Positions 9,268-59,553 of a stretch of DNA of 64,000 nucleotides are shown piece by piece. The stretch comes from an uncultured Candidatus Actinomarina sp. Its GTDB lineage: Bacteria > Actinomycetota > Acidimicrobiia > Actinomarinales > Actinomarinaceae. How positions within the stretch are numbered: the stretch's first letter is position 1; every line of letters starts with the position of its first letter. Location of the stretch: contig CACHBU010000001.1 of the NCBI GenBank assembly GCA_902578135.1, positions 211,569-275,568 on the forward strand. The letters run 5' to 3'. The translations under genes were made by a program, and so were the position numbers. A model generated the notes under the pieces. It ran no database searches. It saw only the letters and a program-made list of their open reading frames with translations, and was not told where the DNA came from.

Positions 9268-9353
9268 ATTTTCCTTTCTTACCTTGAGAAAATAAAGAAA
9301 CTTCAAGAATTTATAGAAACTTCATTCCTTCTCTCGAGGACTGTTGTCTTAAC

Positions 9354-9434: not shown

Positions 9435-9453
9435 CTTGATAAATAGTAGCAGA

Positions 9454-45382: not shown

Positions 45383-47997
45383 TGTTTGGTTTTACAAAAC
45401 GCCCTCTTTTTTTGATTGCATGGAAAAACTTAAAAACCTATCCCATTAGAATTTTTCTCACTACGTCTTCCATTATTCTTGGTGTCGCAGTAATAATTGC
45501 TTCAAATATATTTTCAGAAAGTAATAAATCTGCGTTCGATAACTTATTTTCAGGAATTTATGAAGGAGTTGACTTAGTTGTACAGCCGATTCAGGAAGAT
45601 TTTGCACAGGGCTTTAGTGGAGATGGAGGACAGGGTCCTATTTCTTTCGAGGTAAAAAAAATACCCGATAATAGAATTCAGGAGATTACAAACTTGCCTA
45701 GTGTAAGAGCTGCATGGGGTGAGGTTTTAGGTTTTGCACAATTCATAAAAATTGTAGATGGTGAAACAGTATTAATTTCAAATGGATTTGCTCCTACATT
45801 TGGTGCAGCATGGGATAGTAATCCATATGCACAACAGTGGTCACTTGTAGAGGGACAACCCCCAACAAACAAAAAAGAAGTTGTCATGGATGTCGTAACT
45901 GCTGAAAATCATAATTTCTTAGTCGGAGATAGGGTGACAGTTCTTGCCGGTGCGACACCTGCATCATTTACAATTGTTGGAATTGCAGAGTTTGCTAATG
46001 TTGGTGCACCAGGTGGCGCAACTTTTGCTTTATTTGAATTTAGAACTGCCCAAGCACTTCTTGATTCAAAAGGAGAAGTTGATCTTATCAATGTAGTTAT
46101 AGAAAACAATTTTGATATTAACGATGTAAAAAATGATATAACAAACCTAGATTCAGAAAATTTAAATGTAATTAACGCTCAAGAAGCTGCAGCCGAACAA
46201 GCTGATTCAATTAAGCAGGGTCTAGATTTTTTTAACACAATACTTAATGTTTTTGCAGGGATTGCAATTTTTGTTGGTGCTTTTATTATTCAAAATACCT
46301 TTAGAATACTTTTACTCCAAAGAACAAAAGAACTGTCTTTGCTTAGAGCGCTCGGCACATCCAAAAGACAGATTTATAGGTTGGTCATATCTGAGTCTTT
46401 GTTTATGTCAATAATTGGTTCAGGGCTCGGTATAGCTTTAGGTATTGGACTAGCAGTAGCAGTTAAAGAGGGGTTACAGTATTTTGAATTTGGTCTTCCT
46501 GACGGCCCTTTGGTTCTGACTACAGAAGCTGCAATCACAGGATTAATTATTGGTATTACAGTTACGATCTTTTCTTCTCTACTCCCTGCTAGAAAAGCTT
46601 CACAAGTAAGTCCAATGGAAGCAATCAGAGATAGTGTTTCAACCCCACAAAGAAAATCTTTACTTACAAGACTTTTGTTTGGCTCGATAATTTCTATTGT
46701 TGGATTTGGAGTACTGTTTGGAGTTTTGTACGACTTCTTAGATCTCCCAACCTTATCATCCTTGCAACAAGTTGGATTTGGTGCAGGTGTTATATTTATT
46801 GGAATCTCAGTTGTAACTCCGTCTATTACAAAGCCTTTTGTTTTTATATTTGATAAAATTTACAACTTATTATTTGGAATTTTAGGCAAATTAGCAACTG
46901 AAAACTCTAAAAGAACTCCAAGAAGAACTGCATCTACAGCTTCTGCTTTGATGATTGGCCTTACATTGATTTCTTTAGCAAATGTTATTACAACTTCGTT
47001 TAAGGCACAGGCAGAGTCTCTAATTAGCGAAGTTATTCTTGCAGACTATCAGGTGAGTGCAGCAAATGTTTTTGCTTCTCCAGGTATTCCAACAGGTTTG
47101 TCTGAGGAACTTTTACAGCTCGATGAAGTAACCAAGCTCTCAAGAACAAGAGCAACAGTTGTTGGATTTAACGATAGACCTTTGATTTTGGGTGCTGTTG
47201 ACGAGACTGTTTTTGATCTCGTAAAAACTGACGATGTATCAGGAGATAGAAAAGACTTTCTTGATGAGAACGCTATCGGAATATTAAAACAAACTGCGGA
47301 AAGAGAAGAGCTTTTTGTTGGAGACGAAGTTGTTTTAACAATTCCTGAAGAAGGGGAAAGAACATTTACAGTGTCTTACATATTTGACTGGACTACACAA
47401 CCTCCAGCAGAATTTTTTGTCTTACTTGAAAATAATTCTTTTTTTGCGGATGAGTCTTTAGACACAGAACTATATTTCAATGTTGATAAAAAAACTCCAG
47501 AGTTAGAAGAGAAAATTAATGCAATCGTTGATGAATATCCAGGAGTAGAAATAAGAGATGAAGATGGTCTGGTTGAAGAGGCAAACAACCAAATTCAGTT
47601 ACTTTTAAATGTAATATACGGATTCCTGTCGATATCTATTTTTGTAGCACTTTTTGGAATAACCAACACACTATCACTTTCTGTTTTTGAAAGAACAAGA
47701 GAAATAGGTCTTATGAGAGCTATAGGTACTTACAGAAAACAAATTAGAAGAATGATATTTATTGAATCATCGATAATTTCAATATTCGGAGCAGCATTAG
47801 GAACAAGTCTAGGTATATTTTTTGCTTGGAGCCTCATACAAACCCTTGCTGACGAAGGGTTCACTATGTTCGCAGTGTCTATCCCTCAGACAGCATTATG
47901 GATTGGAATTTCGATTATTGCAGGAGTAATCGCTGCAATACTTCCTGCAATTCGAGCATCCAGACAAAATATTCTTGAAGCTATCTCTTATGAGTAA
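45382..47997 (+). CDS. Double FtsX-domain ABC transporter permease (YbbP-like, about 10 TM)
   Basis: 871 aa with two FtsX-type 4-TM modules (RTKELSLLRALGTSKRQI and RTREIGLMRAIGTYRKQI), each preceded by a large extracytoplasmic domain. ATGA overlap with the ATPase gene. Confidence 0.85.
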   Translation: MFGFTKRPLFLIAWKNLKTYPIRIFLTTSSIILGVAVIIASNIFSESNKSAFDNLFSGIYEGVDLVVQPIQEDFAQGFSGDGGQGPISFEVKKIPDNRIQEITNLPSVRAAWGEVLGFAQFIKIVDGETVLISNGFAPTFGAAWDSNPYAQQWSLVEGQPPTNKKEVVMDVVTAENHNFLVGDRVTVLAGATPASFTIVGIAEFANVGAPGGATFALFEFRTAQALLDSKGEVDLINVVIENNFDINDVKNDITNLDSENLNVINAQEAAAEQADSIKQGLDFFNTILNVFAGIAIFVGAFIIQNTFRILLLQRTKELSLLRALGTSKRQIYRLVISESLFMSIIGSGLGIALGIGLAVAVKEGLQYFEFGLPDGPLVLTTEAAITGLIIGITVTIFSSLLPARKASQVSPMEAIRDSVSTPQRKSLLTRLLFGSIISIVGFGVLFGVLYDFLDLPTLSSLQQVGFGAGVIFIGISVVTPSITKPFVFIFDKIYNLLFGILGKLATENSKRTPRRTASTASALMIGLTLISLANVITTSFKAQAESLISEVILADYQVSAANVFASPGIPTGLSEELLQLDEVTKLSRTRATVVGFNDRPLILGAVDETVFDLVKTDDVSGDRKDFLDENAIGILKQTAEREELFVGDEVVLTIPEEGERTFTVSYIFDWTTQPPAEFFVLLENNSFFADESLDTELYFNVDKKTPELEEKINAIVDEYPGVEIRDEDGLVEEANNQIQLLLNVIYGFLSISIFVALFGITNTLSLSVFERTREIGLMRAIGTYRKQIRRMIFIESSIISIFGAALGTSLGIFFAWSLIQTLADEGFTMFAVSIPQTALWIGISIIAGVIAAILPAIRASRQNILEAISYE

Positions 47998-49335: not shown

Positions 49336-50367
49336 ATGGAAATAGGAATAGACTCCTTTGCTAAGAAGACTTTAACTAATGAAGGAGGCACTGTTGACGA
49401 TGATGCAAAGGCCATGTCGGAGCTCATTGAACGAATTGTACATGCCGATAAAGTTGGGATTGATGTTTTTGGTCTTGGGGAACACCATAGAGAAGAGTTT
49501 CTAGACTCTGCAGCTCATAATATACTCTCAGCTGCAGCATCAAAAACAGATAGTATACGATTAACTAGTGCAGTCGCAGTAATTAGTGCAATGGATCCAG
49601 TAAGATTATTTCAAAATTACTCAACATTAGATTTGATTTCTAACGGCAGAGCAGAAATAGTTGCAGGCAGAGGCTCTTTTACGGAGGCTTTTCCTTTATT
49701 TGGACTTGACTTTAGTGATTATGACGACCTCTATGCTGAAAAACTCGACCTTCTTTTGAAAATTAGAGATGAACAACAAGTTACTTGGGCCGGAAGATTT
49801 AGACCATCTTTAGAAAATCAGATTGTTTATCCGAGGCCTGTTCAAAAAAAATTACCAATATGGGTAGGTGTTGGAGGAACTCCCGCATCATTTGTGCGAG
49901 CAGGTTCCTTAGGCCTACCTCTTATGATTGCTGTAATTGGAGGTGAGACACATAGGTTTAGGCCGTTAGTTGATCTTTACTATAAAGCAGCTGAAGAGGC
50001 AGGCCATGAAAAATCTACCTTGAAAATAGGACTCCACTCACTTGGTTTTGTGGCAAACACAAAAGAAGAAGCAGTGGAAAAATACTATCCGGGTTATAGA
50101 GTATGGTTTAACCAAATTGGCAAAGAGCGCGGCTGGCCACCAGTTACTATGGAGAGATTTGAACAACAAATTGGTGACTTAGGAGCTTATGTTATTGGAG
50201 GTCCAGAAGAAGTTGCTGAGAAATTAGTACGACATAGTAAGGCTTTGGGAGGCATTTCACGCTTTACTTTTCAAATAGACAATGCTGGTCTGTCTCATGA
50301 TGACCTTCTTCAGACATTTACGCTTATCGGGCAAGAAGTAAAACCGTTAGTTCTCGAAAAGTCCTAG
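49336..50367 (+). CDS. LLM-class (luciferase-like) flavin/F420-dependent oxidoreductase
   Basis: GIDVFGLGEHH, a TIM-barrel LLM pattern and 343 aa length. Confidence 0.78.
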   Translation: MEIGIDSFAKKTLTNEGGTVDDDAKAMSELIERIVHADKVGIDVFGLGEHHREEFLDSAAHNILSAAASKTDSIRLTSAVAVISAMDPVRLFQNYSTLDLISNGRAEIVAGRGSFTEAFPLFGLDFSDYDDLYAEKLDLLLKIRDEQQVTWAGRFRPSLENQIVYPRPVQKKLPIWVGVGGTPASFVRAGSLGLPLMIAVIGGETHRFRPLVDLYYKAAEEAGHEKSTLKIGLHSLGFVANTKEEAVEKYYPGYRVWFNQIGKERGWPPVTMERFEQQIGDLGAYVIGGPEEVAEKLVRHSKALGGISRFTFQIDNAGLSHDDLLQTFTLIGQEVKPLVLEKS

Positions 50368-50368
50368 A

Positions 50369-50461
50369 TTTACACAAACTTTACACAAATTTAACAAAAT
50401 CCAGCACAAGCCCAATAAAAATTTTGTAGACTGACCATGTAATTTAGAGAAGTTAAATTAC
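50369..50461 (+). promoter_or_regulatory. Candidate control region of the 50.5-55.9 kb array: a direct repeat plus a 5' hairpin
   Basis: TTTACACAAA occurs twice with an 11-nt period (50369-50390). A possible promoter is TTAACA-17-AATAAA at 50391-50419. A hairpin GTAATTTA-gagaagt-TAAATTAC lies at 50439-50461. RBS AAAGGAG precedes the first gene. Confidence 0.35.
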
Positions 50462-50505
50462 GCCAACAAATTAATAAAAGGAGCTTATGGAAGGTAGGTT
50501 ATCAT

Positions 50506-51075
50506 ATGAAAACATTTTTTACGCAACCAATCGGTAATTTAGCAAGACAAAACGCTATTACATTTCTGGTCTTGAATCTTTTATTTGTAGCATTACAGCT
50601 ATCAGGCACAACAGCACTTGATGCACTTGAAGATTTGATAAACTTCATCTGGGGTTTCTCTCTCGCCACAATAGTTATTACTGCATATTATCTTGCTGAA
50701 GATCATGTTCCAGATTATTGGAGATCAGCACACAGCATTTTAGCTACAGTCATAATATTCGGAACATTTCTTGAAATTACTGAATTAGAGGATGGATTTC
50801 TACCAATGTACTTTTTTTGGGCATTTAATTCATTAATTTATAGCGTTACTCTCAGAGGTAATGGAGTATTTCGTCCAATTTATGAGAACATGACAATACT
50901 TGGAGCACTGTTTCTACTTATTGGAAGCTCAGCAACTTTATTTTTTGGCTTTGAGCCTTCAGATTCCTTTCAACAGTTTGGATTTATTGGATGGCTTGTT
51001 TTGATAATTGGTTTTAGTTTAGGAAATTATTTTGCCTGGGGCGATAAATCAACCACAAGCAATGAAGGGGAGTAA
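50506..51075 (+). CDS. Small polytopic membrane protein, family A member 1 (unknown function)
   Basis: 189 aa with about 5-6 hydrophobic segments. It shares the N-terminus MKTFFTQP, HVPDYWRSA and a C-terminal FAWGDK with the ORFs at 51423 and 52020. Confidence 0.7.
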   Translation: MKTFFTQPIGNLARQNAITFLVLNLLFVALQLSGTTALDALEDLINFIWGFSLATIVITAYYLAEDHVPDYWRSAHSILATVIIFGTFLEITELEDGFLPMYFFWAFNSLIYSVTLRGNGVFRPIYENMTILGALFLLIGSSATLFFGFEPSDSFQQFGFIGWLVLIIGFSLGNYFAWGDKSTTSNEGE

Positions 51076-51077
51076 AC

Positions 51078-51398
51078 ATGGCAATAACTAATTCAAGAGA
51101 ATTTACCATCAATGTTGGAAAGATAGCTGATGCAGAAAAGTGGCTTTCTGAAGGAGCAGATTTATGGAAAGAAATTACAGGCAAAGATGCTGTAATTTAC
51201 AAAGAGGGTTGGGGAGACCAATACAAGATGTTATTTGTCACTACATACGAATCAATGGGAGAGACTGAAGAAGTCGGAGAAAAAGTAATGGCTGACAAGA
51301 GAGTAACCGATTGGCTTCAAAATGGAATGACAAATGGCGATTTAATTTCTGGTGCTGTCGATCGTTTTTTTACAACAATTAAAGATACAAGGGAATAG
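51078..51398 (+). CDS. Single-domain ABM/NIPSNAP-sized soluble protein (unknown function)
   Basis: 106 aa, starting 2 nt after the previous stop with RBS GGGGAG. The pattern of alternating beta/alpha segments and the YESMGETEE motif is compatible with a ferredoxin-like ABM fold. This is my inference, not a profile hit. Confidence 0.6.
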   Translation: MAITNSREFTINVGKIADAEKWLSEGADLWKEITGKDAVIYKEGWGDQYKMLFVTTYESMGETEEVGEKVMADKRVTDWLQNGMTNGDLISGAVDRFFTTIKDTRE

Positions 51399-51422
51399 TT
51401 ATAAAGAACAGGAGTTAAATCG

Positions 51423-51980
51423 ATGAGATCATTTTTTGTACAACCAGATAAACAACAAGCTAAAGGATCTGCAGTCATGTTTATCTTTTCAGAGGTCTAC
51501 GGCTTTCTTGAGCTAGGAATAAATGGTTTAGATAAACTAATTGCGTTTTTTGGGGCAGTCGCTTTTGCTAATGTGATTTTGTTAAGTTACCAATTAGTCG
51601 AAAACAACAATGTTCCAAAAAGTTGGAAAACTGGAACAGCAATGATCGCAGCTGTGGCTTTAGGTTTTGGAATCTTTGATACAGCTTACATTGGAACGGA
51701 AGCTCCCATAAATACTGATGGAATTTACTTGTTTATATTGATAACGATAATTGGATTCAATGTTGTTGCTGAAGGCGTTGTTTCAAACATATGGAGGTAC
51801 ATGGCAATAACTGGCTCATTAGGTCTGCTTTTTTTTATAGGATCTGATTATTTCTTTGATGGCTCATTCCTTGATAATTTGCCTGAATGGGTATTTCCTA
51901 TCGGCTTAGTTTTTTATGTTTCATGGCTTCTTGGAATAGGGGTTGGAACATATACAGCTTGGAACAAGAGAGAAGATTAA
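51423..51980 (+). CDS. Small polytopic membrane protein, family A member 2
   Basis: 185 aa. MRSFFVQP, NVPKSWKTGTAMIAA, SNIWRYMAI and a C-terminal TAWNKRED. Clear paralogue of the ORF at 52020. Confidence 0.72.
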   Translation: MRSFFVQPDKQQAKGSAVMFIFSEVYGFLELGINGLDKLIAFFGAVAFANVILLSYQLVENNNVPKSWKTGTAMIAAVALGFGIFDTAYIGTEAPINTDGIYLFILITIIGFNVVAEGVVSNIWRYMAITGSLGLLFFIGSDYFFDGSFLDNLPEWVFPIGLVFYVSWLLGIGVGTYTAWNKRED

Positions 51981-52019
51981 AAAGAAAGATAATATTAGAA
52001 AAAGGAGAAAGAAAATAAA

Positions 52020-52556
52020 ATGAAAAAGTTCTTTATACAGGACGCTAAAGAAGGATCACAACAAGCAGCCTACATGTTTATAGCTATAAATGTTGTTTGG
52101 TTTGTTGGAGGCATAGCTGAACTAGATTATGGAGTTTTTGAAAATGTACTTCAATTATTCTGGTCCTTCTCACTTGTAGGAATACTTTTAGGATTGAAAG
52201 ACCTTCAAGGAGATACAGTTCCTGAAGATTGGAGACAGGGATACACAATGATTGCTGCGGCAGTGTTTGTTGCATCACTTCTTGGTGTTAATGAAGATCT
52301 AAACACTTCTGGGGTTTGGACATTTTTTGGATTTGTAATACTAGGTTTAGGTGTAACCTCTGAAGGTGTAATCGATAATATTTGGAGATATGCAGCAATC
52401 ATTGCTGGATTGTTTGGAATTGTTGGAGCAGGTAGTGAATTTATTACTGGAACTAGTATCATTGCAGACGACTCTCCATTGCAGTTTGTCGGTTTCATAA
52501 CGTTTATTGCAGGTGTTGGAATAGGTCCACTACTTGCTTGGAATAAAAAAGAGTAG
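52020..52556 (+). CDS. Small polytopic membrane protein, family A member 3
   Basis: 178 aa. MKKFFIQD, TVPEDWRQGYTMIAA, DNIWRYAAI and a C-terminal LAWNKKE. Confidence 0.72.
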   Translation: MKKFFIQDAKEGSQQAAYMFIAINVVWFVGGIAELDYGVFENVLQLFWSFSLVGILLGLKDLQGDTVPEDWRQGYTMIAAAVFVASLLGVNEDLNTSGVWTFFGFVILGLGVTSEGVIDNIWRYAAIIAGLFGIVGAGSEFITGTSIIADDSPLQFVGFITFIAGVGIGPLLAWNKKE

Positions 52557-52559
52557 TTT

Positions 52560-53201
52560 ATGTATGTAAGACTAGGATTAGCGAACCCCAAAGAGGGTAT
52601 GGCAGAAGACGCTTTAAATTACTTTAGGGACGTAGCAATACCAGTATACGATCAGGTAAGCGGACTATTAGGAGCTGCTGCTTGCATTAATAATGAAGGA
52701 CAGCTTATGGCTTGGACAACATGGGCTAATAATGAAGCTAAAGAAGCAGCTATGGCTGAATTCCAACAGAATCTTGCTGGACTTGCTGAACTGTTGAGTG
52801 AACCTCCAACTATTCTTGAGGGCCCAATGGTAGCTGGACAACAATACATTATGGTACCTAAAGATGGTGAAGAACCATTTTTTGCAAGATTTGTAATGGG
52901 TGGAGGCACACAAGAAGAAAAAACTTACGACGACATCGCTGATTTTATGACAAATACTGTTTACACAGCATATGAAAATGTGGAGGGTATTTATGCTTCT
53001 GGAGCTTGCAAAATAGATGAAAACAGTGGGTTTAGTTTTAACTTTTGGACAAGCCATGATGCCGCGCACGCGGCTTCAGAAGTAATTTCATCTGTTGTTT
53101 CAGATGCAGTCGCAAGCTTGATAAAAGAAGCTCCCAAAGAACTTACCGGTGAATGCAACGTTTGGAAAAATTATGTTGATTTTCCAGTAGGAAAAATTTA
53201 A
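52560..53201 (+). CDS. Tandem ABM-like (double ferredoxin-fold) soluble protein, family B member 1
   Basis: 213 aa, N-terminus MYVRL. Two repeats each carry a W-x-x-W-x-[SN]-x-[ED]-A type motif (MAWTTWANNEAKEA; FNFWTSHDAAHA), as in ABM domains. Linker EPPTILEGPMVAGQQY. C-terminus CNVWKNYVDFPVGK. Confidence 0.72.
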   Translation: MYVRLGLANPKEGMAEDALNYFRDVAIPVYDQVSGLLGAAACINNEGQLMAWTTWANNEAKEAAMAEFQQNLAGLAELLSEPPTILEGPMVAGQQYIMVPKDGEEPFFARFVMGGGTQEEKTYDDIADFMTNTVYTAYENVEGIYASGACKIDENSGFSFNFWTSHDAAHAASEVISSVVSDAVASLIKEAPKELTGECNVWKNYVDFPVGKI

Positions 53202-53227
53202 TACTATTGATTTGTTAAAGGAGGAAA

Positions 53228-53878
53228 ATGTATTTTAGATTAACTCAAGTCGATGTACAAGAAGGAAAAATGGATGAAACTATTGCTTACGCATCAGGTG
53301 TCATGGATTCATTTGTTGATACACCAGGACTATATCAGATTTGTATAGCTGAAATGAGTAATGGCCAAATGACTTCATGGACAACATGGGCAAGCGAAGA
53401 TGCAATGAATGCTGCAGGCCCTCAAATTCAAGAAGCTTTGGGAGGATTGGCAGATTATATTGCTGGCCCGCCAACTATTTCACATGGTCCAATGAATGCT
53501 GGGCAAATTTACCAAAACTTAATGAAGGGTGAGAGAGACGGAGAGCCTTTTGTCGCTCGACTTGGCTTTGGAGCCGAATACCAAGATGGCAAACTAGAAG
53601 AAGCAACTGATTGGGTACAGAATACTGTGTATGCTGGCTATGAAGGCACCCCAGGACTAATGGGTGCATTAGCTGCCGATGTTGGGGGTTCAGTGGTAAC
53701 AATGAGCACCTGGGAAAATCAGGAATCTTTAGATGCTTCACAAGAAAAGTTTCAAGAAATCATGGAAGATGCCATGAAATATGTAAAAAATCCTCCAACA
53801 GTTGTGACTGGTGTTTGCAACCTTTGGAGAAATAACGTGAGTTTTCCAGCAGGAAAATTATCACAGTGGAACAAATAA
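53228..53878 (+). CDS. Tandem ABM-like soluble protein, family B member 2
   Basis: 216 aa. MYFRL, SWTTWASEDAMNAA, GPPTISHGPMNAGQIY, MSTWENQESLDAS, CNLWRNNVSFPAGK. Strong RBS AAAGGAGGAAA. Confidence 0.75.
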   Translation: MYFRLTQVDVQEGKMDETIAYASGVMDSFVDTPGLYQICIAEMSNGQMTSWTTWASEDAMNAAGPQIQEALGGLADYIAGPPTISHGPMNAGQIYQNLMKGERDGEPFVARLGFGAEYQDGKLEEATDWVQNTVYAGYEGTPGLMGALAADVGGSVVTMSTWENQESLDASQEKFQEIMEDAMKYVKNPPTVVTGVCNLWRNNVSFPAGKLSQWNK

Positions 53879-53890
53879 GAAAGGAAATAT

Positions 53891-54517
53891 ATGTTAAGTA
53901 CTAAAGAAGTAGCAATTGGGTCAAGCATGGCTAGAATTTTTGTTATTGGAATAATTCCTAATTTCTTAATTCAGGCACTTGCTATTGATCCAACAGTCGT
54001 TGATTACAACGAAACATGGGGACCAGTTATCTCGACACTAAATGTGATTACTGGGTTTGCATTGTTATTTGTTTTTGCTCTAACAACTAAGTTGTTTGGA
54101 GACGACAATAATCCATATGTAAGAATTACTGGAACAATAGCTTTTGTTACTCAGTGCATTTTTGTTCAAGATGCATTTGCAGGACCCTTAGCTTCAAATA
54201 GCGACAATGCTTTTTTGACAACTAATCAAGTTTTGCAAACAACAGGAACCAATGGTCCTGTTTGGGCTCTTTTTCTTGGAATATTTACAATTACTGTTTT
54301 GCGAAGCAGTAAGGTAGATCTCTTACCAAGCTGGGGTGTTATTGCAGGATATGGAGCAGCCATTTTAGTAATGACTAATGGTTTAGGTTCAGCCTTTGGT
54401 TTAATTCCTGATGCTGCAAATTTGATTATCTTGATATTAGGCGGAGTGATACTTTACCCTGCTACAGTTTGGGCACTAGGTGTTTCATTTAGAGCATCTT
54501 TAAACACAGCAGAATAA
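53891..54517 (+). CDS. Polytopic membrane protein (divergent; possibly a distant family A member)
   Basis: 208 aa with about 6 hydrophobic segments. It is embedded between B-family genes. I see no shared motif with A1-A3, only similar size and topology. Confidence 0.62.
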   Translation: MLSTKEVAIGSSMARIFVIGIIPNFLIQALAIDPTVVDYNETWGPVISTLNVITGFALLFVFALTTKLFGDDNNPYVRITGTIAFVTQCIFVQDAFAGPLASNSDNAFLTTNQVLQTTGTNGPVWALFLGIFTITVLRSSKVDLLPSWGVIAGYGAAILVMTNGLGSAFGLIPDAANLIILILGGVILYPATVWALGVSFRASLNTAE

Positions 54518-54556
54518 GTCTGAGGAAATTATTCCGTAGAGTAAAAAATTAAAAAA

Positions 54557-55201
54557 ATGTATGCAGTAGCAGTTAGTATTTTATTTCAAGACGGGAAGCT
54601 TGATGAACTCAAAGAGTTCTTTGAAAATACAGGCTTCCCAGCTTTAGAAATTCTTAAAGGAGACTTGTATTCAATAGCCTTTTTTAATCCAAAAGACAAT
54701 GTAAACCTAGGCATTGCTTTTATGAAGGACAAAGAGACTGCAGATAAATTTGCACAAATTAGAAACGAGAACTTGATGCAAATACAAGATCTGCTTGCTA
54801 GTTTCCCAAGGGTTTATGAAGGTGAACTATTGACTGGCAAGACCCTTAAAGACTCCCTTGTTGCAGAACCAAGAGAATCTTTGTTTTTAGCATTCGCAAA
54901 GTTGGATGTAAAAAATGCTGACGAATATATGAATCTCCAAAAAGAAATTTATCTACCAAAACTAGAAAAAGATGAGGGAATTATTTCTTACGGATCAATT
55001 AAAATCGATGATAACACAATTGTTTTGTTCGAGTTTTGGACTTCACATGATGCAAAACACAGTTTCGATGAAAAACTTAATGCTGATGAAAATGTATATG
55101 AAAAATTCATGCCATTGATGGATGGATTTACAGATTACTATGGTGAACCGTTTGCCATGAGGCAATTTACCGACTTTAAAGCAGGAGAATCAATTAATTA
55201 A
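54557..55201 (+). CDS. Tandem ABM-like soluble protein, family B member 3 (most divergent)
   Basis: 214 aa. MYAVAV, SFPRVYEGELLTGKTL, LFEFWTSHDAKHSF and a C-terminal FTDFKAGES, collinear with B1, B2 and B4. Confidence 0.68.
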   Translation: MYAVAVSILFQDGKLDELKEFFENTGFPALEILKGDLYSIAFFNPKDNVNLGIAFMKDKETADKFAQIRNENLMQIQDLLASFPRVYEGELLTGKTLKDSLVAEPRESLFLAFAKLDVKNADEYMNLQKEIYLPKLEKDEGIISYGSIKIDDNTIVLFEFWTSHDAKHSFDEKLNADENVYEKFMPLMDGFTDYYGEPFAMRQFTDFKAGESIN

Positions 55202-55216
55202 AAAAGAAAGGAAATT

Positions 55217-55852
55217 ATGTACTTTAGAATAACGATTCCATCTCTTCAGGATGGAAAAAAAGACGAAGCTATATCTTTTGTTAAAGAAAAAGTTATGCCT
55301 GAGTTTGATGGGACACCCGGACTTCTAACGATGATGGCAGCTATTACAGGGGAGACTTCTGGCGTTAATTTGGCTGCTTATGAAAGTAAGGAAGCTGTAG
55401 AAGCCGTGGAAGAAAAAATACAAGGAGTATTATCAGAAGCAGCTGGAATGATGTCAGCACCTCCTGTAATTTATCAAGGGGATGCAGTTTATGGTAAGGT
55501 CTATCAGACTATGGCTAAGGACAGTACAAGACCAAGCTATTTGAGGTTGGTTGTTGGTGTTGCAAAAGACACAGACGCAGTATTGAGCTTTCTTAAAGAA
55601 AAAGTAGAACCAATTTATGAAGAGTCTGAAGGCCTTCAAGTAACAGGGGCGGTTTTTGACGGAAGTAGCGCTATTAGTTGGAACTTCTGGGATTCTGAGG
55701 AAGAAATGAATGCAGCTGTTGAAAAATTACAAGCAGCACTAGATAGTGAATCAGAGTCTGAACTGTTTGATGGAAGCACTATAGCTTATATGGGACCTGT
55801 GTATGCAGGTAAGTTGTTTATTGATTTTAATGAGGGAGATACTCCAACATAA
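55217..55852 (+). CDS. Tandem ABM-like soluble protein, family B member 4
   Basis: 211 aa. MYFRI, GTPGLL (as in B2), APPVIYQGDAVYGKVY, SWNFWDSEEEMNAA and a C-terminal FIDFNEGD. Confidence 0.72.
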   Translation: MYFRITIPSLQDGKKDEAISFVKEKVMPEFDGTPGLLTMMAAITGETSGVNLAAYESKEAVEAVEEKIQGVLSEAAGMMSAPPVIYQGDAVYGKVYQTMAKDSTRPSYLRLVVGVAKDTDAVLSFLKEKVEPIYEESEGLQVTGAVFDGSSAISWNFWDSEEEMNAAVEKLQAALDSESESELFDGSTIAYMGPVYAGKLFIDFNEGDTPT

Positions 55853-55884
55853 ATCTAAGTGAATAGATAACGCATAGAAAAAAA

Positions 55885-55912
55885 GGGATTTTTTTTAAAA
55901 TCCCTTTTTTTT
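55885..55912 (+). terminator. Rho-independent terminator closing the nine-gene array
   Basis: GGGATTTT-tttt-AAAATCCC followed by T8, and preceded by an A-run, so it could act in both directions. Confidence 0.78.
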
Positions 55913-55938
55913 ATATTGAAAATATTTAGCATATTTCT

Positions 55939-56064
55939 ATGTTTAGAAAGATAACACTTACAAGAGTAATACTTATTTTGTTGCTTCTCTATATACTTTT
56001 TTCTGAAGATGACACAGCAAGAAGATTTAAACAACTTCCTGAACTATTATTAAATTATTTTTAA
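55939..56064 (+). CDS. Very small hydrophobic protein (41 aa, hypothetical)
   Basis: My translation is MFRKITLTRVILILLLLYILFSEDDTAARRFKQLPELLLNYF, with one TM segment. It ends 9 nt before the next gene. Support is weak. Confidence 0.25.
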   Translation: MFRKITLTRVILILLLLYILFSEDDTARRFKQLPELLLNYF

Positions 56065-56073: not shown

Positions 56074-56445
56074 ATGAATTTAAAAGATTTTTCAAATGTC
56101 GAATACATAAATCTAATCACATACAAAAAAGACAAAACGCCCATTACAACACCAGTATGGGTTGCAGATTTTTCAAACTCATTAGTTGTAACAACAAGCC
56201 TTAACGCTGGAAAAGTAAAGAGGGTTCGAAACAACGGTAAAGCAACAATTTATACCACCAACCAAAACGGCTCTAAAAAGTTATCAGAAAGCCTTGACCT
56301 AAAAGCATCTCTTATAGAGGATGCGGATATCAAAAAGCAGGCTGCAGATATAATCAGGAAAAAATATGGCATGATGGCAAAAATGATTATGAAAGGACCT
56401 GATAAGAATCGGGCAATTATAAAACTAGAAGAAAGGAGAGGGTAA
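56074..56445 (+). CDS. PPOX-class (pyridoxamine-5'-phosphate-oxidase-like) flavin/F420-binding split-barrel protein
   Basis: 123 aa. INLITYKKDKTPITTPVWV...GKVKRVRNNGKATI fits the small actinobacterial PPOX/F420 family pattern. Confidence 0.6.
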   Translation: MNLKDFSNVEYINLITYKKDKTPITTPVWVADFSNSLVVTTSLNAGKVKRVRNNGKATIYTTNQNGSKKLSESLDLKASLIEDADIKKQAADIIRKKYGMMAKMIMKGPDKNRAIIKLEERRG

Positions 56446-56484: not shown

Positions 56485-56976
56485 TTATGAAAACCAACGA
56501 TGTTTTCCAAATTGGTTTCTAGGTACTGCTGTTCCTTTATCTAGGTACCATTTGAAACCTCCTACAACAGAATTTAAATAAGATGTTAATTTAGGATTTA
56601 TGTATAAATAATATGGTAAAAAAGCAATAAACTTAGGCCATTCCCTAAAGAAGAAAGGGTATACAGTTATTTTTAACTCGGATCCTAGATAATGCTCTGT
56701 AATTCTCCATTCAACATAAGACTTTGGACCACGTTTTGTTCCAATCCACAAATTATAACCAGTACCCTCAAACCATTCTGAAAACTCTCTGATAAATGTG
56801 AGGCCATTTAAATACACGAGTTTATCTTTATGGCTTTCTTCGTTCCAAATTAATATTTCATTTTCTTTACAAAATGGATGTGTATTGTTTAGATTATTTT
56901 CTTTTGAAATAGCATTCCATAACTCGCCAGGTTTTTGAGAAAATACCTGACTACAAGATGAGTTAAAACCTTTCAT
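56485..56976 (-). CDS. SRPBCC/START-like small protein (tentative)
   Basis: I prefer the ATG at 56976 (MKGFNSSCSQVF). The size and the pattern PGELWNAISK...YVEWRI...LKITVYP resemble polyketide-cyclase/SRPBCC folds. No catalytic motif. Confidence 0.45.
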   Translation of the reverse strand: MKGFNSSCSQVFSQKPGELWNAISKENNLNNTHPFCKENEILIWNEESHKDKLVYLNGLTFIREFSEWFEGTGYNLWIGTKRGPKSYVEWRITEHYLGSELKITVYPFFFREWPKFIAFLPYYLYINPKLTSYLNSVVGGFKWYLDKGTAVPRNQFGKHRWFS

Positions 56977-57300
56977 TTTATAAATATAAATCATCTTTAT
57001 AAAAATAAAAAAATATGTCACAAATAAAATTTAGAACCCACTACTTTGGGCATAGGTCAACCACCTATGGAAGTGTGTTTGAGTGATTTTCAACGCATAC
57101 ACGTGATTGACCTTTTACTACATTATAATTTTTTCTTCACAACCTTGCAAGATTGTGATTTTATTTTCACAAAAGCTCTCAATTTGTGAAAATGTAGTTT
57201 TAAATGTATTCCAGAACACTGATTTGTACAATGATTATGGGGAGATTATATCTTCAAATACTTAGTGAAAACTTTGGGGGAAGATTTCACAGGTTATTTT

Positions 57301-57330: not shown

Positions 57331-58497
57331 TTATATGAGAACTAGAGAAAACCCGAGAACCACGCACATCAAAAGACCATAATACGCTATGGAGACTGAG
57401 TATAGTCTTTGGTTTTTGTGTAAGTTGATCACACTTAAATTAGTAAGTGAATAATAAATGAGAATAAAGAATGCACTGAGCTTTATTGCGTTTGTAATAT
57501 TTATGGTATAAATTCCTACAACCACTGTTAGTAAAACAAACAATTCTGAAACATATGCCGAGTTATTTTTATTATGTATTTTTGAAAACACATTTGGAAG
57601 AATACCGTCTCTTGACATTGCAACATATATTCTGCTTATCGCTGGAAGTAAAGCAAGAAATACTGAAGCAGTAGCAATCGTAGATGCAAAAACTATTAGA
57701 AATGAAAAATTAGACATTACTGATACATCCATTGCGATAAGCAAGGGAGTGTTTGAGTTTGCAACAACTTCTGGCCCTATGATTGCTAGCGCTAGCCAAT
57801 TTACCAAAAGATAAATTGTAACTGTTACACCTAAGCCAGTAAGTATTGAACTAGGGATTATTTTTTCAGGATTTTTTACTTCTTCTCCGTATGTTGCAAG
57901 TCTTGAATAACCTGTAAAAGCAAAAAACCATATAGCTGCTGATAAAAACAAATTACTAGTACTAAAGCCTTCAAGTAAAGGAATAGCAATATTTGTTGAA
58001 GGTGTCATAAGTATTGCAATACAGAAAAAAGCTAAAATGGATATCACTATAAGAACAAACCATCTTGCTAAAGTTGCTGTCTTTGTAATTCCTTGGTATC
58101 CAATTAAAAAGACAATTACAGATAAACCCACACCAAGTTCTTTGCCATAAATCGGAGAAATGTAATTTCCAAGAGTTAAAGCAATAGCAACACAACTAAC
58201 TGTCTTTCCTAATATAAATACAATTCCAGCAATATTTCCAGGCAGTTTCCCCAACACTTTGTTTGCATACAAGTAGGTTCCACCAGTTTGTGGATATAAC
58301 GATGCGAGCTGAGCAGATGATGAGGCATTTGCAAATGCAAGAGTGCTTGCGAGCAATAATCCTAAAATGGATGAGTAAGAACTAATTTTTGAAGTAGGAG
58401 CTAAATTATAAAATAATCCCGCACCAATCATTGAACTCAAACCTAGATATAAAGAATTTCTCTTAGTTAATGTTCTTGAAAAATTATTTTCTTTCAT
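57331..58497 (-). CDS. APC-superfamily amino acid permease
   Basis: 388 aa with about 11-12 TM segments. N-terminal GLSSMIGAGLFY motif and the GGTYLYA motif typical of APC transporters. Confidence 0.78.
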   Translation of the reverse strand: MKENNFSRTLTKRNSLYLGLSSMIGAGLFYNLAPTSKISSYSSILGLLLASTLAFANASSSAQLASLYPQTGGTYLYANKVLGKLPGNIAGIVFILGKTVSCVAIALTLGNYISPIYGKELGVGLSVIVFLIGYQGITKTATLARWFVLIVISILAFFCIAILMTPSTNIAIPLLEGFSTSNLFLSAAIWFFAFTGYSRLATYGEEVKNPEKIIPSSILTGLGVTVTIYLLVNWLALAIIGPEVVANSNTPLLIAMDVSVMSNFSFLIVFASTIATASVFLALLPAISRIYVAMSRDGILPNVFSKIHNKNNSAYVSELFVLLTVVVGIYTINITNAIKLSAFFILIYYSLTNLSVINLHKNQRLYSVSIAYYGLLMCVVLGFSLVLI

Positions 58498-58575: not shown

Positions 58576-59553
58576 ATGTTTAATAAATTGTCACCAACAC
58601 CCATTACAAATCAAACTCATAGAAGACTATTAATATTTTCTATGATCTGGTTCTTTTCAGGAGCATGGATTGATTCAAGCGCACATACATATCTCATAGA
58701 TGACATTGAGACATTCTTTACACCTTGGCATGGTGTACTTTATACAGGATATGCTTTTTCAGTTTTGGTAGTCATGTATATAAAAAATAAAATGAAGGAT
58801 TATAAATTTGATATAGGTGTTCTAGGCGCAGTTGTTTTTGGAATAGGTGGTGCATCAGATGCTATATGGCACACATTACTTGGAATAGAAACTGGAGTAG
58901 AGCCTCTTATTACCCCATCTCATCTCATGTTATTTCTTGGATCATTTCTGATGTTAGATTATGTTTTTACTACAAGGCCATCAAAAGAGAGTTTGGATTA
59001 TGCATCAATATTTTCTGTAGCGACAAGTTATGGGTTAGTTATGTTTATAACACTATTTATAAATCCATTTTTAAATATTTGGTCTTTTGTCGAAAGAGAA
59101 GATGAACTTGCTGCCGGCGGTGTAATACTGCAGGCAATGCTTGCCAGTTTTATATTTGTTTATGTAGTGCGTTTTAAAGTTTCACCAAAACAGATGTCAC
59201 TGGTTTATTTAATTTCTTTTTTGTATATTTCAATAAATCCAAGCCTTGGTGAATTTAATCGAACAATTCTAATTTGTGTCTCTGGTTCATTAATGTCTGC
59301 ACTTATATATCAAATCACTAAATGGTATCAAACAACAAATCATGATAGAAAAATTCAAGTTAGTGCGGCCTTAGTCGCTGGCTCTTATGGCTTAGTATTC
59401 GTGATACATTTATTGGCTTTTTCTGCACTTAATGGAGTTGATCTCTCATGGCGTTTTTACGGCCTTGGAGGCTTGATTACAACACCACTTTTATTTGGGT
59501 ATATGTTAGGAAACTTAGGTGTGAGTCCAACGTCTGGTGAAGTAGTTAGGTAA
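58576..59553 (+). CDS. Polytopic membrane protein, unknown function
   Basis: 325 aa with about 9 hydrophobic segments. Conserved-looking His motifs SSAHTYL, FFTPWHGVLYTGY, DAIWHTLLG and TPSHLMLFLG. Confidence 0.55.
   Translation: MFNKLSPTPITNQTHRRLLIFSMIWFFSGAWIDSSAHTYLIDDIETFFTPWHGVLYTGYAFSVLVVMYIKNKMKDYKFDIGVLGAVVFGIGGASDAIWHTLLGIETGVEPLITPSHLMLFLGSFLMLDYVFTTRPSKESLDYASIFSVATSYGLVMFITLFINPFLNIWSFVEREDELAAGGVILQAMLASFIFVYVVRFKVSPKQMSLVYLISFLYISINPSLGEFNRTILICVSGSLMSALIYQITKWYQTTNHDRKIQVSAALVAGSYGLVFVIHLLAFSALNGVDLSWRFYGLGGLITTPLLFGYMLGNLGVSPTSGEVVR

What the first reader, a model, noticed from the sequence alone, without database searches (positions are those of the whole stretch)
50506..55912. 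Nine-gene array built only from small polytopic membrane proteins interleaved with ABM-like ferredoxin-fold proteins
Nine co-directional genes with gaps of only 2-39 nt sit between a 138-nt leader and a strong terminator at 55885-55912. The order is A1 (membrane), b (106-aa single domain), A2, A3 (membrane), B1, B2 (double domain), A4 (membrane), B3, B4 (double domain). I recognise no enzyme active site, transporter ATPase, regulator or secretion component among them. The array contains only these two protein types, each present in about four copies. In an otherwise streamlined, mostly single-copy genome, 5.4 kb of paralogues is conspicuous. Such a layout suggests a modular membrane-plus-soluble partner system. 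The soluble partner would be a cofactor-independent oxygenase-like, haem-, quinone- or polyketide-binding barrel. The membrane partner would be a dedicated small membrane protein. The array is flanked by an LLM-class oxidoreductase (49336-50367) and a PPOX-class protein (56074-56445). Both families are typically flavin/F420-dependent in actinobacteria, which hints at a redox or small-molecule-modification context. I know of no described system with this architecture.
Basis: partly seen in the sequence, partly recalled or inferred. Interest (0 to 1): 0.85.

Follow-up and report, generated by a model that had tools for sequence, protein, structure and literature searches.

The report
Hypervariable membrane-plus-ABM-fold operon of Actinomarina
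A tightly packed nine-gene operon in the abundant ocean bacterium Candidatus Actinomarina is made only of orphan six-helix membrane proteins and small cytoplasmic barrel proteins; every species has it at the same site but with reshuffled gene cassettes, and it matches no described system.

Summary
Nine co-directional ORFs (50506-55852, gaps of 2-39 nt) sit between a 138-nt leader and a terminator hairpin.

- **Soluble proteins:** B1-B4 are significant paralogues with an internal duplication. The B1 model is a tandem ABM/ferredoxin-like barrel, but no Pfam threshold is reached.
- **Membrane proteins:** A1-A3 are paralogous 6-TM proteins. "A4" joins them only by deep profile comparison. An exhaustive search of 1.84 billion proteins and a PDB fold search find no outside relatives.
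- **Distribution:** The array occurs only in Ca. Actinomarina/OCS155, always between an M20 peptidase and a PNPOx-like gene. It has 3-9 genes and 29 architectures in 34 species.
- **Evolution:** Every gene is under purifying selection (omega 0.02-0.3). Cassette phylogeny is decoupled from the flanks, and alleles are shared across genera.
- **Expression signals:** A promoter-like pair, a covarying 5' hairpin, a strong SD and the terminator are conserved.
- **Flanking genes:** The flavin/F420 context is not supported. The LLM gene is adjacent in only 12 of 33 species.

Best reading (low confidence): variable membrane subunits feed or dock cytoplasmic ABM-fold binders or oxygenases that act on small hydrophobic molecules. 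Function remains unknown.

The parts
50405..50432 (+). Putative sigma-70-type promoter: -35-like CACAAG (50405-50410), a 16-nt spacer, and -10-like TAGACT (50427-50432). Other species have TAGAAT or TATAAT.
   Evidence: The ACAAG...TA(G/T)A(A/C)T pair is conserved at the same distance from the start codon across genera. Its role as a promoter is inferred. No TSS data are available.
50438..50462 (+). 5'-UTR stem-loop of 10 bp with an R-GAAG loop, predicted to lie at or near the 5' end of the transcript.
   Evidence: RNAalifold on 16 species predicts 10 pairs, 6 with both-sided compensatory changes between clades, and the loop GAAG is conserved. The motif is unique in the window (0 expected). 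No Rfam family matches.
50484..50500 (+). Conserved ribosome-binding element CTTATGGAAGGTAGGTT (SD-like GGAAGG flanked by a short imperfect inverted repeat), 5 nt upstream of the A1 ATG.
   Evidence: It is nearly invariant in 16 species. The only other match in the window has 2 mismatches.
50506..51075 (+). A1: a 189-aa orphan 6-TM membrane protein. This is the universal subunit. Its orthogroup is present in all 34 species arrays, where it is the first gene or occasionally the second.
   Evidence: The AF2 model has pLDDT 85 and pTM 0.83, with helices at 9-33, 39-64, 71-92, 99-115, 122-147 and 153-187. There is no PDB or viral fold match. Only 81 hits, mostly fragments, turn up among 1.84e9 representatives.
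51078..51398 (+). b: a 106-aa soluble accessory protein carried on a rare cassette.
   Evidence: NIPSNAP scores 19.8 bits, below the cut-off of 22.3. Only 20 clusters exist in 5.8e9 proteins. It is present in 2 of the other species arrays. Compared with L009 it is a clean insertion between the A1 stop and the A2 RBS.
51423..51980 (+). A2: a 185-aa A-family membrane paralogue.
   Evidence: BLASTP against A3 gives 2e-27 and against A1 5e-12. Its orthogroup occurs in 4 other species.
52020..52556 (+). A3: a 178-aa A-family membrane paralogue.
   Evidence: Its orthogroup occurs in 10 species. It is 87% identical (dS 0.52) to the copy in another genus whose flanks are saturated.
52560..53201 (+). 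B1: a 213-aa cytoplasmic tandem ABM-fold protein and the most widespread B type. Its C-domain carries the motif FWTSHDAAH.
   Evidence: The AF2 model has pLDDT 94. Foldseek matches 3f44 and 3mcs at E about 1e-10 and TM 0.74-0.76. The orthogroup occurs in 28 species-representative loci plus the window, 29 of the 34 arrays. Conserved residues are listed.
53228..53878 (+). B2: a 216-aa tandem ABM-fold paralogue, the sister of B1.
   Evidence: BLASTP against B1 gives 2e-38 at 34% identity. Pfam ABM scores 22.8 bits against a cut-off of 23.1. The orthogroup occurs in 13 species.
53891..54517 (+). A4, here called the C family: a 208-aa membrane protein and a very distant A homologue. It typically opens the second module.
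   Evidence: It is not significant against A1-3. It becomes significant with diverse profiles (hhalign 92.8%, E 3.8e-7). Six subgroups exist.
54557..55201 (+). B3: a 214-aa tandem ABM-fold paralogue. Its C-domain carries the motif FWTSHDAKH.
   Evidence: The orthogroup occurs in 18 species.
55217..55852 (+). B4: a 211-aa tandem ABM-fold paralogue and the terminal gene of the operon.
   Evidence: The orthogroup occurs in 17 species.
55877..55912 (+). Intrinsic terminator, bidirectional in type: A-tract, GGGAT stem, T-tract.
   Evidence: It folds at -17.4 kcal/mol with z = -5.5. The same hairpin is conserved after nearly all arrays that end in a B4-type or B5-type gene.

Best explanation
This is a single, probably strongly expressed operon that is specific to the order Actinomarinales.

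**Building blocks.** There are two ancient kinds:
- orphan six-helix membrane proteins (the A/C superfamily, with further divergent types in other species);
- cytoplasmic proteins made of two fused ABM-type ferredoxin-like domains (the B family), sometimes joined by small single-domain alpha+beta proteins.

**Proposed unit (inferred).** The working unit is a membrane subunit plus a soluble ABM-fold partner. The membrane proteins would be the variable, specificity-determining parts. They would bind or conduct a small, probably hydrophobic or aromatic, molecule. They would present it at their conserved cytoplasmic face (N-terminal MKxFF helix, VPxxW loop, loop 4, C-terminal AW) to the B proteins. 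The B proteins would bind it or transform it without a cofactor, by oxygenation or isomerisation, as ABM-fold proteins typically do. This could serve uptake-and-trap or detoxification.

**Evolution.** Different species, and near-identical genomes too, carry different cassette sets. The cassettes move by homologous recombination anchored in the conserved leader and flanks. Divergent alleles are kept across genera.

**Shown:** gene structure, folds, orphan status, distribution, selection, cassette exchange, the conserved leader and the terminator.

**Inferred:** physical A-B docking, a small-molecule ligand, catalysis, and high expression.
For: **Operon**
- Gaps are 2-39 nt and each gene has its own SD.
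- The promoter-like pair, a covarying 5' hairpin and the SD element are conserved.
- The terminator is conserved.

**Folds**
- B1 is a tandem ferredoxin-like barrel. Its nearest solved relatives are cofactor-independent or uncharacterised oxygenases.
- An ABM-like W-x-S-H-D-A-x-H motif is kept in the C-domains of B1 and B3.
- A1 is a confident 6-TM bundle.

**Pairing logic**
- Among complete arrays, all 57 (34 species + 23 metagenomic) start with an A protein and contain at least one B.
- 30 of 34 species arrays consist of exactly two 'membrane run then soluble run' modules.
- A and C are distant homologues, as are the B types. This fits duplication of an ancestral membrane+B pair.

**Docking face**
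- All K/R residues and the family-wide conserved motifs of A lie on one face.
- The opposite loops L1 and L3 are the least conserved (0.30 and 0.37, against 0.58-0.77 on the conserved face).

**Specificity subunits**
- Membrane proteins diverge far more than B proteins. Median identity to the window is 32-52% for A and C, against 71-81% for B1, B3 and B4.
- A1 orthologues keep many intramembrane polar residues (Q15, N16, N24, N108, R123, E127) that the paralogues do not share.

**Real and functional**
- Omega is 0.02-0.3 for all nine genes.
- The array is present in every Actinomarina species representative found.
Against: - There is no direct evidence of an A-B interaction, a ligand or catalysis.
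- The numbers of membrane and soluble genes are uncorrelated (r = -0.01).
- Recombination breakpoints fall between membrane and soluble genes, for example in L036 and L007. Partners are therefore not co-inherited as cognate pairs.
- 8 of 23 complete metagenomic arrays end in a membrane gene with no following B.
- Family-wide invariant residues of B are mostly Gly, Pro and hydrophobic. No catalytic residue is shared by all paralogues.
- The A fold shows no detectable internal inverted repeat and no similarity to any solved transporter.
- Hypervariability with allele sharing across genera is also what an arms-race locus would show.
Confidence: 0.4

Rival explanations
1. Arms-race locus. The A/C membrane proteins would be targets or gatekeepers for phages or other antagonists, for example DNA-entry factors or superinfection-exclusion proteins. 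Negative frequency-dependent selection would drive the cassette turnover. The B proteins would be accessory.
For: - There are 29 orthogroup-level architectures in 34 species and 18 family-level ones in 23 metagenomic arrays.
- 16 of 24 locus pairs with M20 flanks at least 97% identical have A1 below 80% identity.
- Alleles are shared across genera. Examples are L033/L036 (M20 65%, A1 93%) and L023/L025 (65% and 97%).
- The outward-facing loops are the least conserved part of A.
- The only order-wide flexible island reported so far is attributed to phage evasion (PMC7771536).
Against: - There are no PADLOC or PHROGs hits and no viral fold match.
- The outer loops are only about 5-6 residues long, so very little surface is exposed.
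- Divergence is spread over whole proteins, not confined to the loops.
- The cytoplasmic B proteins also show decoupled phylogeny (M20-B1 r = 0.10), which receptor variation does not explain.
- Universal retention in genomes of about 1 Mb argues for a housekeeping benefit.
Confidence: 0.2
2. Co-regulated but non-interacting stress genes. ABM/Dabb-type 'stress-responsive' barrels and small membrane proteins would be induced together, for example by light, oxidative or membrane stress, without forming complexes or sharing a ligand.
For: - Members of the dimeric alpha+beta-barrel superfamily include stress-responsive proteins of unknown activity (established knowledge of the Dabb family).
- B shares no catalytic residues across all paralogues.
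- Gene counts of the two classes are uncorrelated.
- The structured 5' UTR is consistent with post-transcriptional control.
Against: - Exclusive co-occurrence of the two classes across 57 complete arrays, with every array starting with A and holding at least one B, is hard to explain without a functional link.
- Tight translational coupling.
- The conserved cytoplasmic face of A.
Confidence: 0.15
3. Immunity or resistance gene array. The genes would be tandem, rapidly exchanged immunity genes against membrane-active or small-molecule toxins. Membrane proteins would block or export the toxin, and ABM-fold proteins would inactivate it.
For: - Tandem paralogues, copy-number variation, cassette exchange and allele sharing across lineages are typical of immunity arrays.
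- ABM enzymes act on antibiotic-like aromatics (family knowledge; structural neighbours 5f9p and 9kdp).
Against: - No toxin, bacteriocin, secretion or export ATPase gene lies between the conserved flanks in any of the 32 species loci examined, and the family-level gene lists of the 23 complete metagenomic arrays show none either.
- The order is reported to have no identifiable toxin-antitoxin systems or mobile elements (PMC7771536).
- These are dilute planktonic cells.
- The Imm40 hit of B3 is noise (E 0.36).
Confidence: 0.08
4. Respiratory or quinone accessory. The array would be a lineage-specific quinol-oxidising or quinone-modifying membrane complex that compensates for the missing complex III.
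For: - Complex III is reported missing in the order (PMC7771536).
- One B orthologue was named 'quinol monooxygenase YgiN' by JGI.
- The membrane-plus-ABM composition would fit.
Against: - Core respiratory components are not hypervariable in copy number and allele.
- No haem-, Fe-S- or quinone-site motifs are conserved across paralogues.
- B reaches no ABM/YgiN model threshold.
Confidence: 0.05
5. A strain-specific duplication, an annotation artefact, or non-functional ORFs.
For: None beyond the absence of any database annotation.
Against: - The array occurs in 34 species-representative genomes and 80 metagenomic loci at the same position.
- Paralogues are only 23-35% identical, so they are ancient.
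- Omega is 0.02-0.3.
- Confident structure models exist.
Confidence: 0.01

Closest known systems
Uncharacterised tandem-ABM 'putative monooxygenases' (PDB 3f44 from Lactobacillus acidophilus, 3mcs from Fusobacterium nucleatum) and the marine-metagenome tandem ferredoxin-like protein 2pgc
   Same: They have the same size (about 205-218 aa) and the same two-domain beta-alpha-beta-beta-alpha-beta pseudo-dimer barrel. Foldseek gives E about 1e-10 and TM 0.74-0.76 for 3f44 and 3mcs, and TM about 0.6 for 2pgc.
   Different: Sequence identity is 6-12%, and a profile search against PDB sequences finds nothing real. Their function is also unknown. I know of no link to partner membrane proteins for these entries, and I did not check their genomic context.
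ABM-family cofactor-independent oxygenases (Pfam PF03992: ActVA-Orf6, YgiN; the anthrone-oxidase-like 5f9p; PenE 9kdp) and the structurally related sulfur oxygenase reductase
   Same: They share the fold and give sub-threshold PF03992 matches (best 22.8 bits). The B1 and B3 C-domains keep a W-x-S-x-x-A-x-H pattern that resembles the ABM signature.
   Different: No member reaches the Pfam cut-off. Only 7 of 46 members match at E < 0.01. B2 and B4 lack the His residues. No catalytic residue is invariant across the family. The classical enzymes are homodimers of single domains in biosynthetic clusters, not fused tandems in operons with membrane proteins.
S-components of ECF transporters (functional analogy only)
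   Same: They are small (about 180-210 aa) six-helix membrane proteins that occur as many highly divergent paralogues and act as interchangeable specificity subunits docking onto a conserved partner at the cytoplasmic side.
   Different: The A1 model has no significant PDB fold match at all (best E 0.86), so it does not resemble the solved S-component structures that, to my knowledge, are in the PDB. No EcfT or EcfA genes were found among the window ORFs I scanned or in the array loci. The partner here is an ABM-fold protein, not an ATPase module.
Flexible (replacement or additive) genomic islands of marine bacteria, such as the envelope-glycosylation fGI1 of Actinomarinales and the hypervariable regions of SAR11
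   Same: They share a fixed chromosomal position, different gene content even between very close genomes, cassette transfer between genera, and core-like GC (PMC7771536).
   Different: This locus is only 2-5.4 kb. It is built from two or three protein superfamilies instead of heterogeneous glycosyltransferases. It is not tRNA-associated. It was not reported in that study, which states that only one fGI is preserved throughout the order.
NIPSNAP (PF07978) and DUF1428 (PF07237), for the small single-domain proteins b and X1
   Same: Both give weak matches to families in the ferredoxin-like barrel clan. b matches NIPSNAP at E 9e-4. X1 and some B proteins match DUF1428 at E about 1e-2 to 1e-3.
   Different: All matches are below the gathering thresholds. 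hhalign finds no link between b or X1 and B.

Membership tests
Pfam ABM (PF03992, antibiotic biosynthesis monooxygenase) | A sequence match at or above the gathering score (23.1 bits) | tested here: not met
   The best scores are 22.8 bits (B2), 17.1 (B1) and 12.6 (B3); B4 has no match. Only 7 of 46 family members match at E < 0.01, and none reaches the cut-off.
Dimeric alpha+beta barrel superfamily (the ABM / Dabb / DUF1428 / NIPSNAP clan) | A ferredoxin-like beta-alpha-beta-beta-alpha-beta domain that pairs into a barrel, here as a fused tandem | tested here: met
   The AF2 model of B1 has pLDDT 94.1 and pTM 0.88 and contains two such units. Foldseek finds 128 PDB hits at E <= 1e-3, and the leading hits are tandem or dimeric ABM-type proteins. 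The internal duplication scores hhalign E 3.5e-23.
Dimeric alpha+beta barrel superfamily (the ABM / Dabb / DUF1428 / NIPSNAP clan) | Cofactor-independent oxygenase or isomerase activity, or ligand binding in the sheet-helix pocket | not testable with these tools
   This needs biochemistry.
IsdG/MhuD/HmoB haem-degrading ABM enzymes | The conserved catalytic Asn-Trp-His triad with a proximal His (family knowledge) | tested here: inconclusive
   HmoB (3tvz) is only hit 28, with TMq 0.49. No His or Asn is invariant across B paralogues. The B1 and B3 C-domains do have W163/H166/H170-type residues. No residue-level alignment to IsdG was made.
NIPSNAP (PF07978), for protein b | A sequence match at or above the gathering score (22.3 bits) | tested here: not met
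   The score is 19.8 bits at E 9e-4.
ECF-transporter S-component (considered for A/C) | The S-component fold, and an EcfT/EcfA module encoded in the genome | tested here: not met
   The A1 model has no significant PDB fold match (best E 0.86). No profile hit to PDB sequences. No Pfam or NCBIfam hit. No ECF module was found among the scanned ORFs of the window or in the array loci. The whole genome was not examined.
Known anti-phage defence systems (PADLOC) | A match of any component to a PADLOC model | tested here: not met
   All nine proteins give 0 hits at E <= 0.1.
Flexible genomic island (as the term is used for marine bacteria) | An equivalent chromosomal position with different gene content between closely related genomes, and cassette exchange | tested here: met
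   Five genomes whose upstream flank (M20) is 99% identical to the window's carry five different architectures. There are 29 architectures in 34 species. Flank and cassette phylogenies are decoupled.
Any Rfam family, for the leader RNA | A covariance-model match | tested here: not met
   There are 0 matches at E <= 10 in 50300-50600.

The most novel reading that the evidence does not exclude
The array would be a previously unrecognised kind of modular membrane system confined to Actinomarinales. Interchangeable orphan 6-TM 'specificity' subunits would work with fused-ABM cytoplasmic partners to take up or neutralise diverse small molecules. The cassette repertoire would be kept polymorphic by balancing selection, with alleles shared across genera. 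That would make it a second order-wide hypervariable locus, and the main site of physiological microdiversity, in one of the most streamlined and abundant marine bacteria.
Probability: 0.3. Interest if true: 0.85.

Novelty: categorically new. Interest (0 to 1): 0.72.

Why it matters
Candidatus Actinomarina is among the smallest and most abundant free-living cells in the surface ocean. Its genomes of about 1 Mb are reported to carry only 29-48 paralogues and a single order-wide flexible island.

Here up to nine genes, a noticeable share of all paralogues, are devoted to families that have no relatives elsewhere. They are retained in every species, under purifying selection, yet reshuffled even between near-identical genomes.

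Such a locus is a prime candidate for what differentiates co-existing Actinomarina populations, whether by substrate range, chemical defence or phage interaction. It offers a new six-helix membrane fold family and a new branch of the ABM-fold superfamily to characterise.

It also gives a compact marker for tracking microdiversity in metagenomes. It yields concrete hypotheses for heterologous expression in an uncultured lineage.

Tried and rejected
**Family and fold searches that found nothing**
- Pfam, NCBIfam, PADLOC and PHROGs scans of all nine proteins gave nothing at threshold.
- PDB sequence searches with the B profile, the A profile, b, X1 and A4 gave nothing real. The designed-TPR hits are low-complexity artefacts.
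- Foldseek of the A1 model against the PDB and BFVD gave no significant hit.

**Relationships tested between array proteins**
- b or X1 as a single B domain: not supported by hhalign.
- A 3+3 internal repeat in A or C: not supported.

**Leader RNA**
- A known riboswitch or RNA family: no Rfam hit at E <= 10.
- A uORF at the upstream ATG (50487): rejected, because the ATG is absent in the second clade, where the element reads AAGGAAGG.
- A second SD hairpin: the pairing register differs between clades and RNAalifold did not predict it, so I do not claim it.
- Leader motifs as a regulon signal: they are unique within the window.

**Functional linkage to neighbouring genes**
- LLM is adjacent in only 12 of 33 species loci.
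- PutA and Pyridox_ox_2 are occasional insertions.
- Acyl_transf_3 is adjacent in one clade only, and its window orthologue lies 45 kb away.
- No ECF module is nearby.

**Other**
- The rule 'arrays always end with a soluble gene' held for 34 of 34 species arrays but failed in 8 of 23 complete metagenomic arrays.
- The first attempt to scan genomes with the four-paralogue B alignment failed for lack of a conserved stretch.
- A literature search for Actinomarina plus ABM found no paper.

Full report
**1. The observation**

The ORF list reproduces the nine + strand ORFs at the stated coordinates. Gaps are 2, 24, 39, 3, 26, 12, 39 and 15 nt, and each gene has its own SD-like sequence. The leader (50368-50505) is 138 nt. 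The hairpin at 55877-55912 folds at -17.4 kcal/mol (z = -5.5).

Pairwise BLASTP makes A1/A2/A3 mutually significant (5e-12 to 2e-27). B1-B4 are also significant (2e-13 to 2e-38), except B2-B3, the weakest pair at 1e-3. The two halves of each B protein are homologous (1e-8 to 1e-15; hhalign 3.5e-23 with deeper profiles).

A4 is not significantly similar to A1-3 by BLAST or shallow profiles. With profiles built from 37 species it is a very distant homologue (hhalign 92.8%, E 3.8e-7 over 168 columns). The signal is carried mainly by the N-terminal halves.

The 106-aa 'b' cannot be tied to B. It has only a sub-threshold NIPSNAP hit.

**2. What the proteins are**

No Pfam or NCBIfam model reaches threshold for any of the nine proteins. 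Among 46 B-family members, ABM matches 7 and DUF1428 matches 6, all below the cut-off.

The AlphaFold2 model of B1 (pLDDT 94, pTM 0.88) is two beta-alpha-beta-beta-alpha-beta units. Foldseek against the PDB puts it next to:
- uncharacterised tandem 'putative monooxygenases' 3f44 and 3mcs (E about 1e-10, TM 0.74-0.76);
- an anthrone-oxidase-like protein, PenE, sulfur oxygenase reductases, and the marine-metagenome protein 2pgc.

All are at 6-15% identity. So B is a new family of the dimeric alpha+beta-barrel superfamily by fold, not a member of Pfam ABM.

Within orthogroups the B proteins are strongly conserved. B1 and B3 keep an ABM-like FW(T/S)SHDAxH motif in the C-domain, and B2 and B4 lack the two His. 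Across all paralogues the invariant residues are mostly Gly, Pro and hydrophobic.

The A1 model (pLDDT 85, pTM 0.83) is a compact bundle of six TM helices with loops of about 5-6 residues. It has no significant fold match in the PDB (best E 0.86) or in BFVD, and no PDB sequence match.

An exhaustive HMMER scan of 1.84 billion representative proteins with the A profile finds only 81 hits. Most are fragments, and about ten are full length. The word-indexed searches give:
- 180 clusters for A/C;
- 414 for B, where all 120 listed are 71-98% identical to window B1, B3 or B4;
- 20 for b.

The hits that carry a source name are largely from Tara Oceans marine data, and none has a precomputed Pfam domain apart from one truncated b hit.

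**3. Distribution and architecture**

A scan of one genome per GTDB species finds the locus in 37 contigs. Nearly all are titled Candidatus Actinomarina, OCS155 cluster or Acidimicrobiaceae, apart from a few oddly titled MAGs.

HMM annotation shows an array in every one, always co-directional. An M20 peptidase lies upstream in 33 of 33 and a 123-aa PNPOx-like gene lies downstream in 33 of 33.

The LLM monooxygenase (TIGR03858, 477 bits) lies between M20 and the array in only 12 of 33. PutA, a Pyridox_ox_2 protein or an unassigned 215-aa ORF on the opposite strand occasionally sit there too. In one clade an Acyl_transf_3 gene follows the array, but its window orthologue is 45 kb away. Neighbours therefore give no functional lead, and synteny is generally preserved in this order (PMC7771536).

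Arrays hold 4-9 genes in the species set, and the window's nine is the maximum. They hold 3-8 genes in 23 complete metagenomic arrays.

Other species add further components:
- a 117-aa soluble family (X1);
- two more membrane types, X2 (linked to C at E 3.5e-5) and X3.

Rules that hold in all 57 complete arrays: the first gene is an A protein, and at least one B is present. The A1 orthogroup was assigned only in the species set, where it is present in all 34 arrays. 30 of 34 species arrays are exactly two 'membrane run then soluble run' modules. However, 8 of 23 metagenomic arrays end in a membrane gene. Counts of membrane and soluble genes are uncorrelated.

**4. Evolutionary dynamics**

All nine genes are under purifying selection (omega 0.02-0.3), and the paralogues are ancient (23-35% identity). 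Gene phylogeny is nevertheless decoupled from the flanks:

| Comparison | Flanks | Array genes |
|---|---|---|
| L036 vs window | M20 99%, dS 0.15 | A1 47% (dS 2.9), B1 69%, C 45%; B3/B4 98-99% |
| L010 vs window | M20 99%, dS 0.15 | A1 76% (dS 1.0), B1 67%; B3/B4 95-99% |
| L007 vs window | dS 1-1.5 | A1-A3 98-99% (dS 0.02) |
| L026 vs window (other genus) | dS > 2 | A3 87% (dS 0.52) |

Over 561 locus pairs, M20 identity correlates with A1 identity at r = 0.37 and with B1 identity at r = 0.10. Of 24 pairs with M20 at least 97% identical, 16 have A1 below 80%. Eleven pairs with M20 at 75% or less share A1 at 85-97%.

Five genomes whose upstream flank (M20) is 99% identical to the window's (window, L009, L008, L036, L010) have five different architectures. 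The b gene is a clean cassette insertion relative to L009. L036 and L032 have a chimeric leader, with the hairpin of one clade and the SD of the other, which places a breakpoint inside the 5' UTR.

Membrane proteins turn over much faster than B proteins. Median identity to the window is 32-52% for A and C, against 71-81% for B1, B3 and B4.

The published comparative study of the order reports a single order-wide flexible island (envelope glycosylation). It states that no other was detected in all genera. This small locus therefore appears to be undescribed.

**5. Expression signals**

The leader is conserved across genera. It contains:
- a -35-like ACAAG and a -10-like TAGAAT, TAGACT or TATAAT;
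- a 10-bp hairpin (window 50438-50462), with 6 pairs changed on both sides between clades and a conserved GAAG loop;
- an A-rich linker;
- an SD-like GGAAGG element just before the ATG.

No Rfam family matches, and the motifs are unique in the window. The terminator is conserved after nearly all arrays that end in a B4-type or B5-type gene.

From general knowledge of 5'-terminal stem-loops I infer a stable, well-translated polycistronic mRNA. The two GGA-containing elements could also be sites for an RNA-binding regulator. This is untested.

**6. Mechanism**

*Shown:* an operon of orphan 6-TM proteins and cytoplasmic tandem ABM-fold proteins. It is universally retained in a lineage with extreme genome economy, is under purifying selection, and exchanges cassettes.

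*Inferred:* the A proteins have N-in/C-in topology, because all K/R residues (K2, R14, R73, R117, R123, K181) lie on the N-terminal face. The family-wide conserved motifs (MKxFF, VPxxW, loop 4, C-terminal AW) lie on that same face. The opposite loops L1 and L3 are the least conserved. This fits docking of a cytoplasmic partner, for which the co-encoded B proteins are the obvious candidates.

A1 orthologues keep several intramembrane polar residues (Q15, N16, N24, N108, R123, E127) that the paralogues do not share. This fits different ligands for different membrane subunits.

The nearest structural relatives of B act on hydrophobic or aromatic small molecules without cofactors.

My best reading is therefore that variable membrane subunits capture or conduct a small molecule, and ABM-fold partners bind or transform it, for uptake-and-trap or detoxification. 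Confidence is about 0.4.

Evidence against strict cognate pairing:
- gene counts of the two classes are uncorrelated;
- recombination breakpoints fall between membrane and soluble genes;
- some arrays end in a membrane gene;
- no catalytic residue is shared across B paralogues.

Rivals:
- an arms-race locus (0.2): no defence or phage signal, tiny outer loops, and the B proteins left unexplained;
- co-regulated but non-interacting stress proteins (0.15);
- an immunity array (0.08): no toxin genes in any locus examined;
- a respiratory accessory replacing the missing complex III (0.05): at odds with hypervariability;
- an artefact or strain-specific duplication: refuted.

**7. Comparison and novelty**

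By fold, B is a new family of a known superfamily. A/C has no relative by sequence or by fold. The combination, its cassette grammar and its population behaviour match no system in Pfam, NCBIfam, PADLOC, PHROGs, Rfam, the PDB or the literature searched.

The closest analogies are functional or evolutionary: ECF S-components as interchangeable small specificity subunits, and flexible genomic islands. Neither passes a membership test.

I therefore class the system as categorically new, with function unknown. I rate interest at 0.72. It stays high because of the orphan fold, the order-wide retention in a streamlined genome, and the allele sharing across genera.

Noticed in passing
window 55939-56064 (+), with a promoter-like TTGAAA-16-TATGTT at 55916-55943: A 41-aa ORF with one hydrophobic stretch (probably single-TM; MFRKITLTRVILILLLLYILFSEDDTARRFKQLPELLLNYF) lies between the array terminator and the PNPOx-like gene. 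It is conserved at the same length, with conservative substitutions, in 13 other species loci. The start codon follows the -10-like box almost directly, which suggests a leaderless small membrane protein.
   Followed up: partly
window 9314-9450 (-): An AdoCbl (cobalamin) riboswitch, Rfam RF01482, scores 63.3 bits against a gathering score of 50. It is the only Rfam hit in the window.
   Followed up: no
L036 and L032, about 90 nt upstream of the first array gene (alignment A8): The 5' UTR is chimeric. The promoter and hairpin are of the window clade, but the SD and start context (AACTTAGGGAAGGAAGTTTTATG) are of the other clade. This puts a recombination breakpoint inside the leader.
   Followed up: partly
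L019 (LUSA01000094.1, titled Marine group II euryarchaeote), L042 (titled Wenyingzhuangia sp. MAG), P0145 (NCBI name 'Hellea sp.'): Contigs or proteins carrying Actinomarina-type A1 genes are filed under unrelated taxa. This is probably mis-binning in public MAGs.
   Followed up: no
window 44654-47997 (+): A MacB-type ABC transporter (a 242-aa ATPase plus an 871-aa FtsX/MacB_PCD permease) lies directly upstream of the M20 peptidase. It is conserved there in 27 of 33 species loci. No link to the array was established.
   Followed up: partly
window 56485-57021 (-) and 58576-59553 (+): Two further conserved ORFs (178 aa and 325 aa, found in 22-23 species loci) have no Pfam match. They are more lineage-specific unknowns next to an amino-acid permease (57331-58497, -).
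   Followed up: no
window 4667-5758 (-): This Acyl_transf_3 membrane acyltransferase has orthologues that sit immediately downstream of the array, with no terminator between, in a second Actinomarina clade (L020, L023, L026-L030, L033-L035, L037-L040). It marks a rearrangement between genera.
   Followed up: partly
window 59546-61074 (-): Two adjacent PlsC-type lipid acyltransferase genes (286 and 222 aa) are followed by a histidine phosphatase (61094-61789). This is a small lipid-metabolism cluster 4-6 kb downstream of the array.
   Followed up: no
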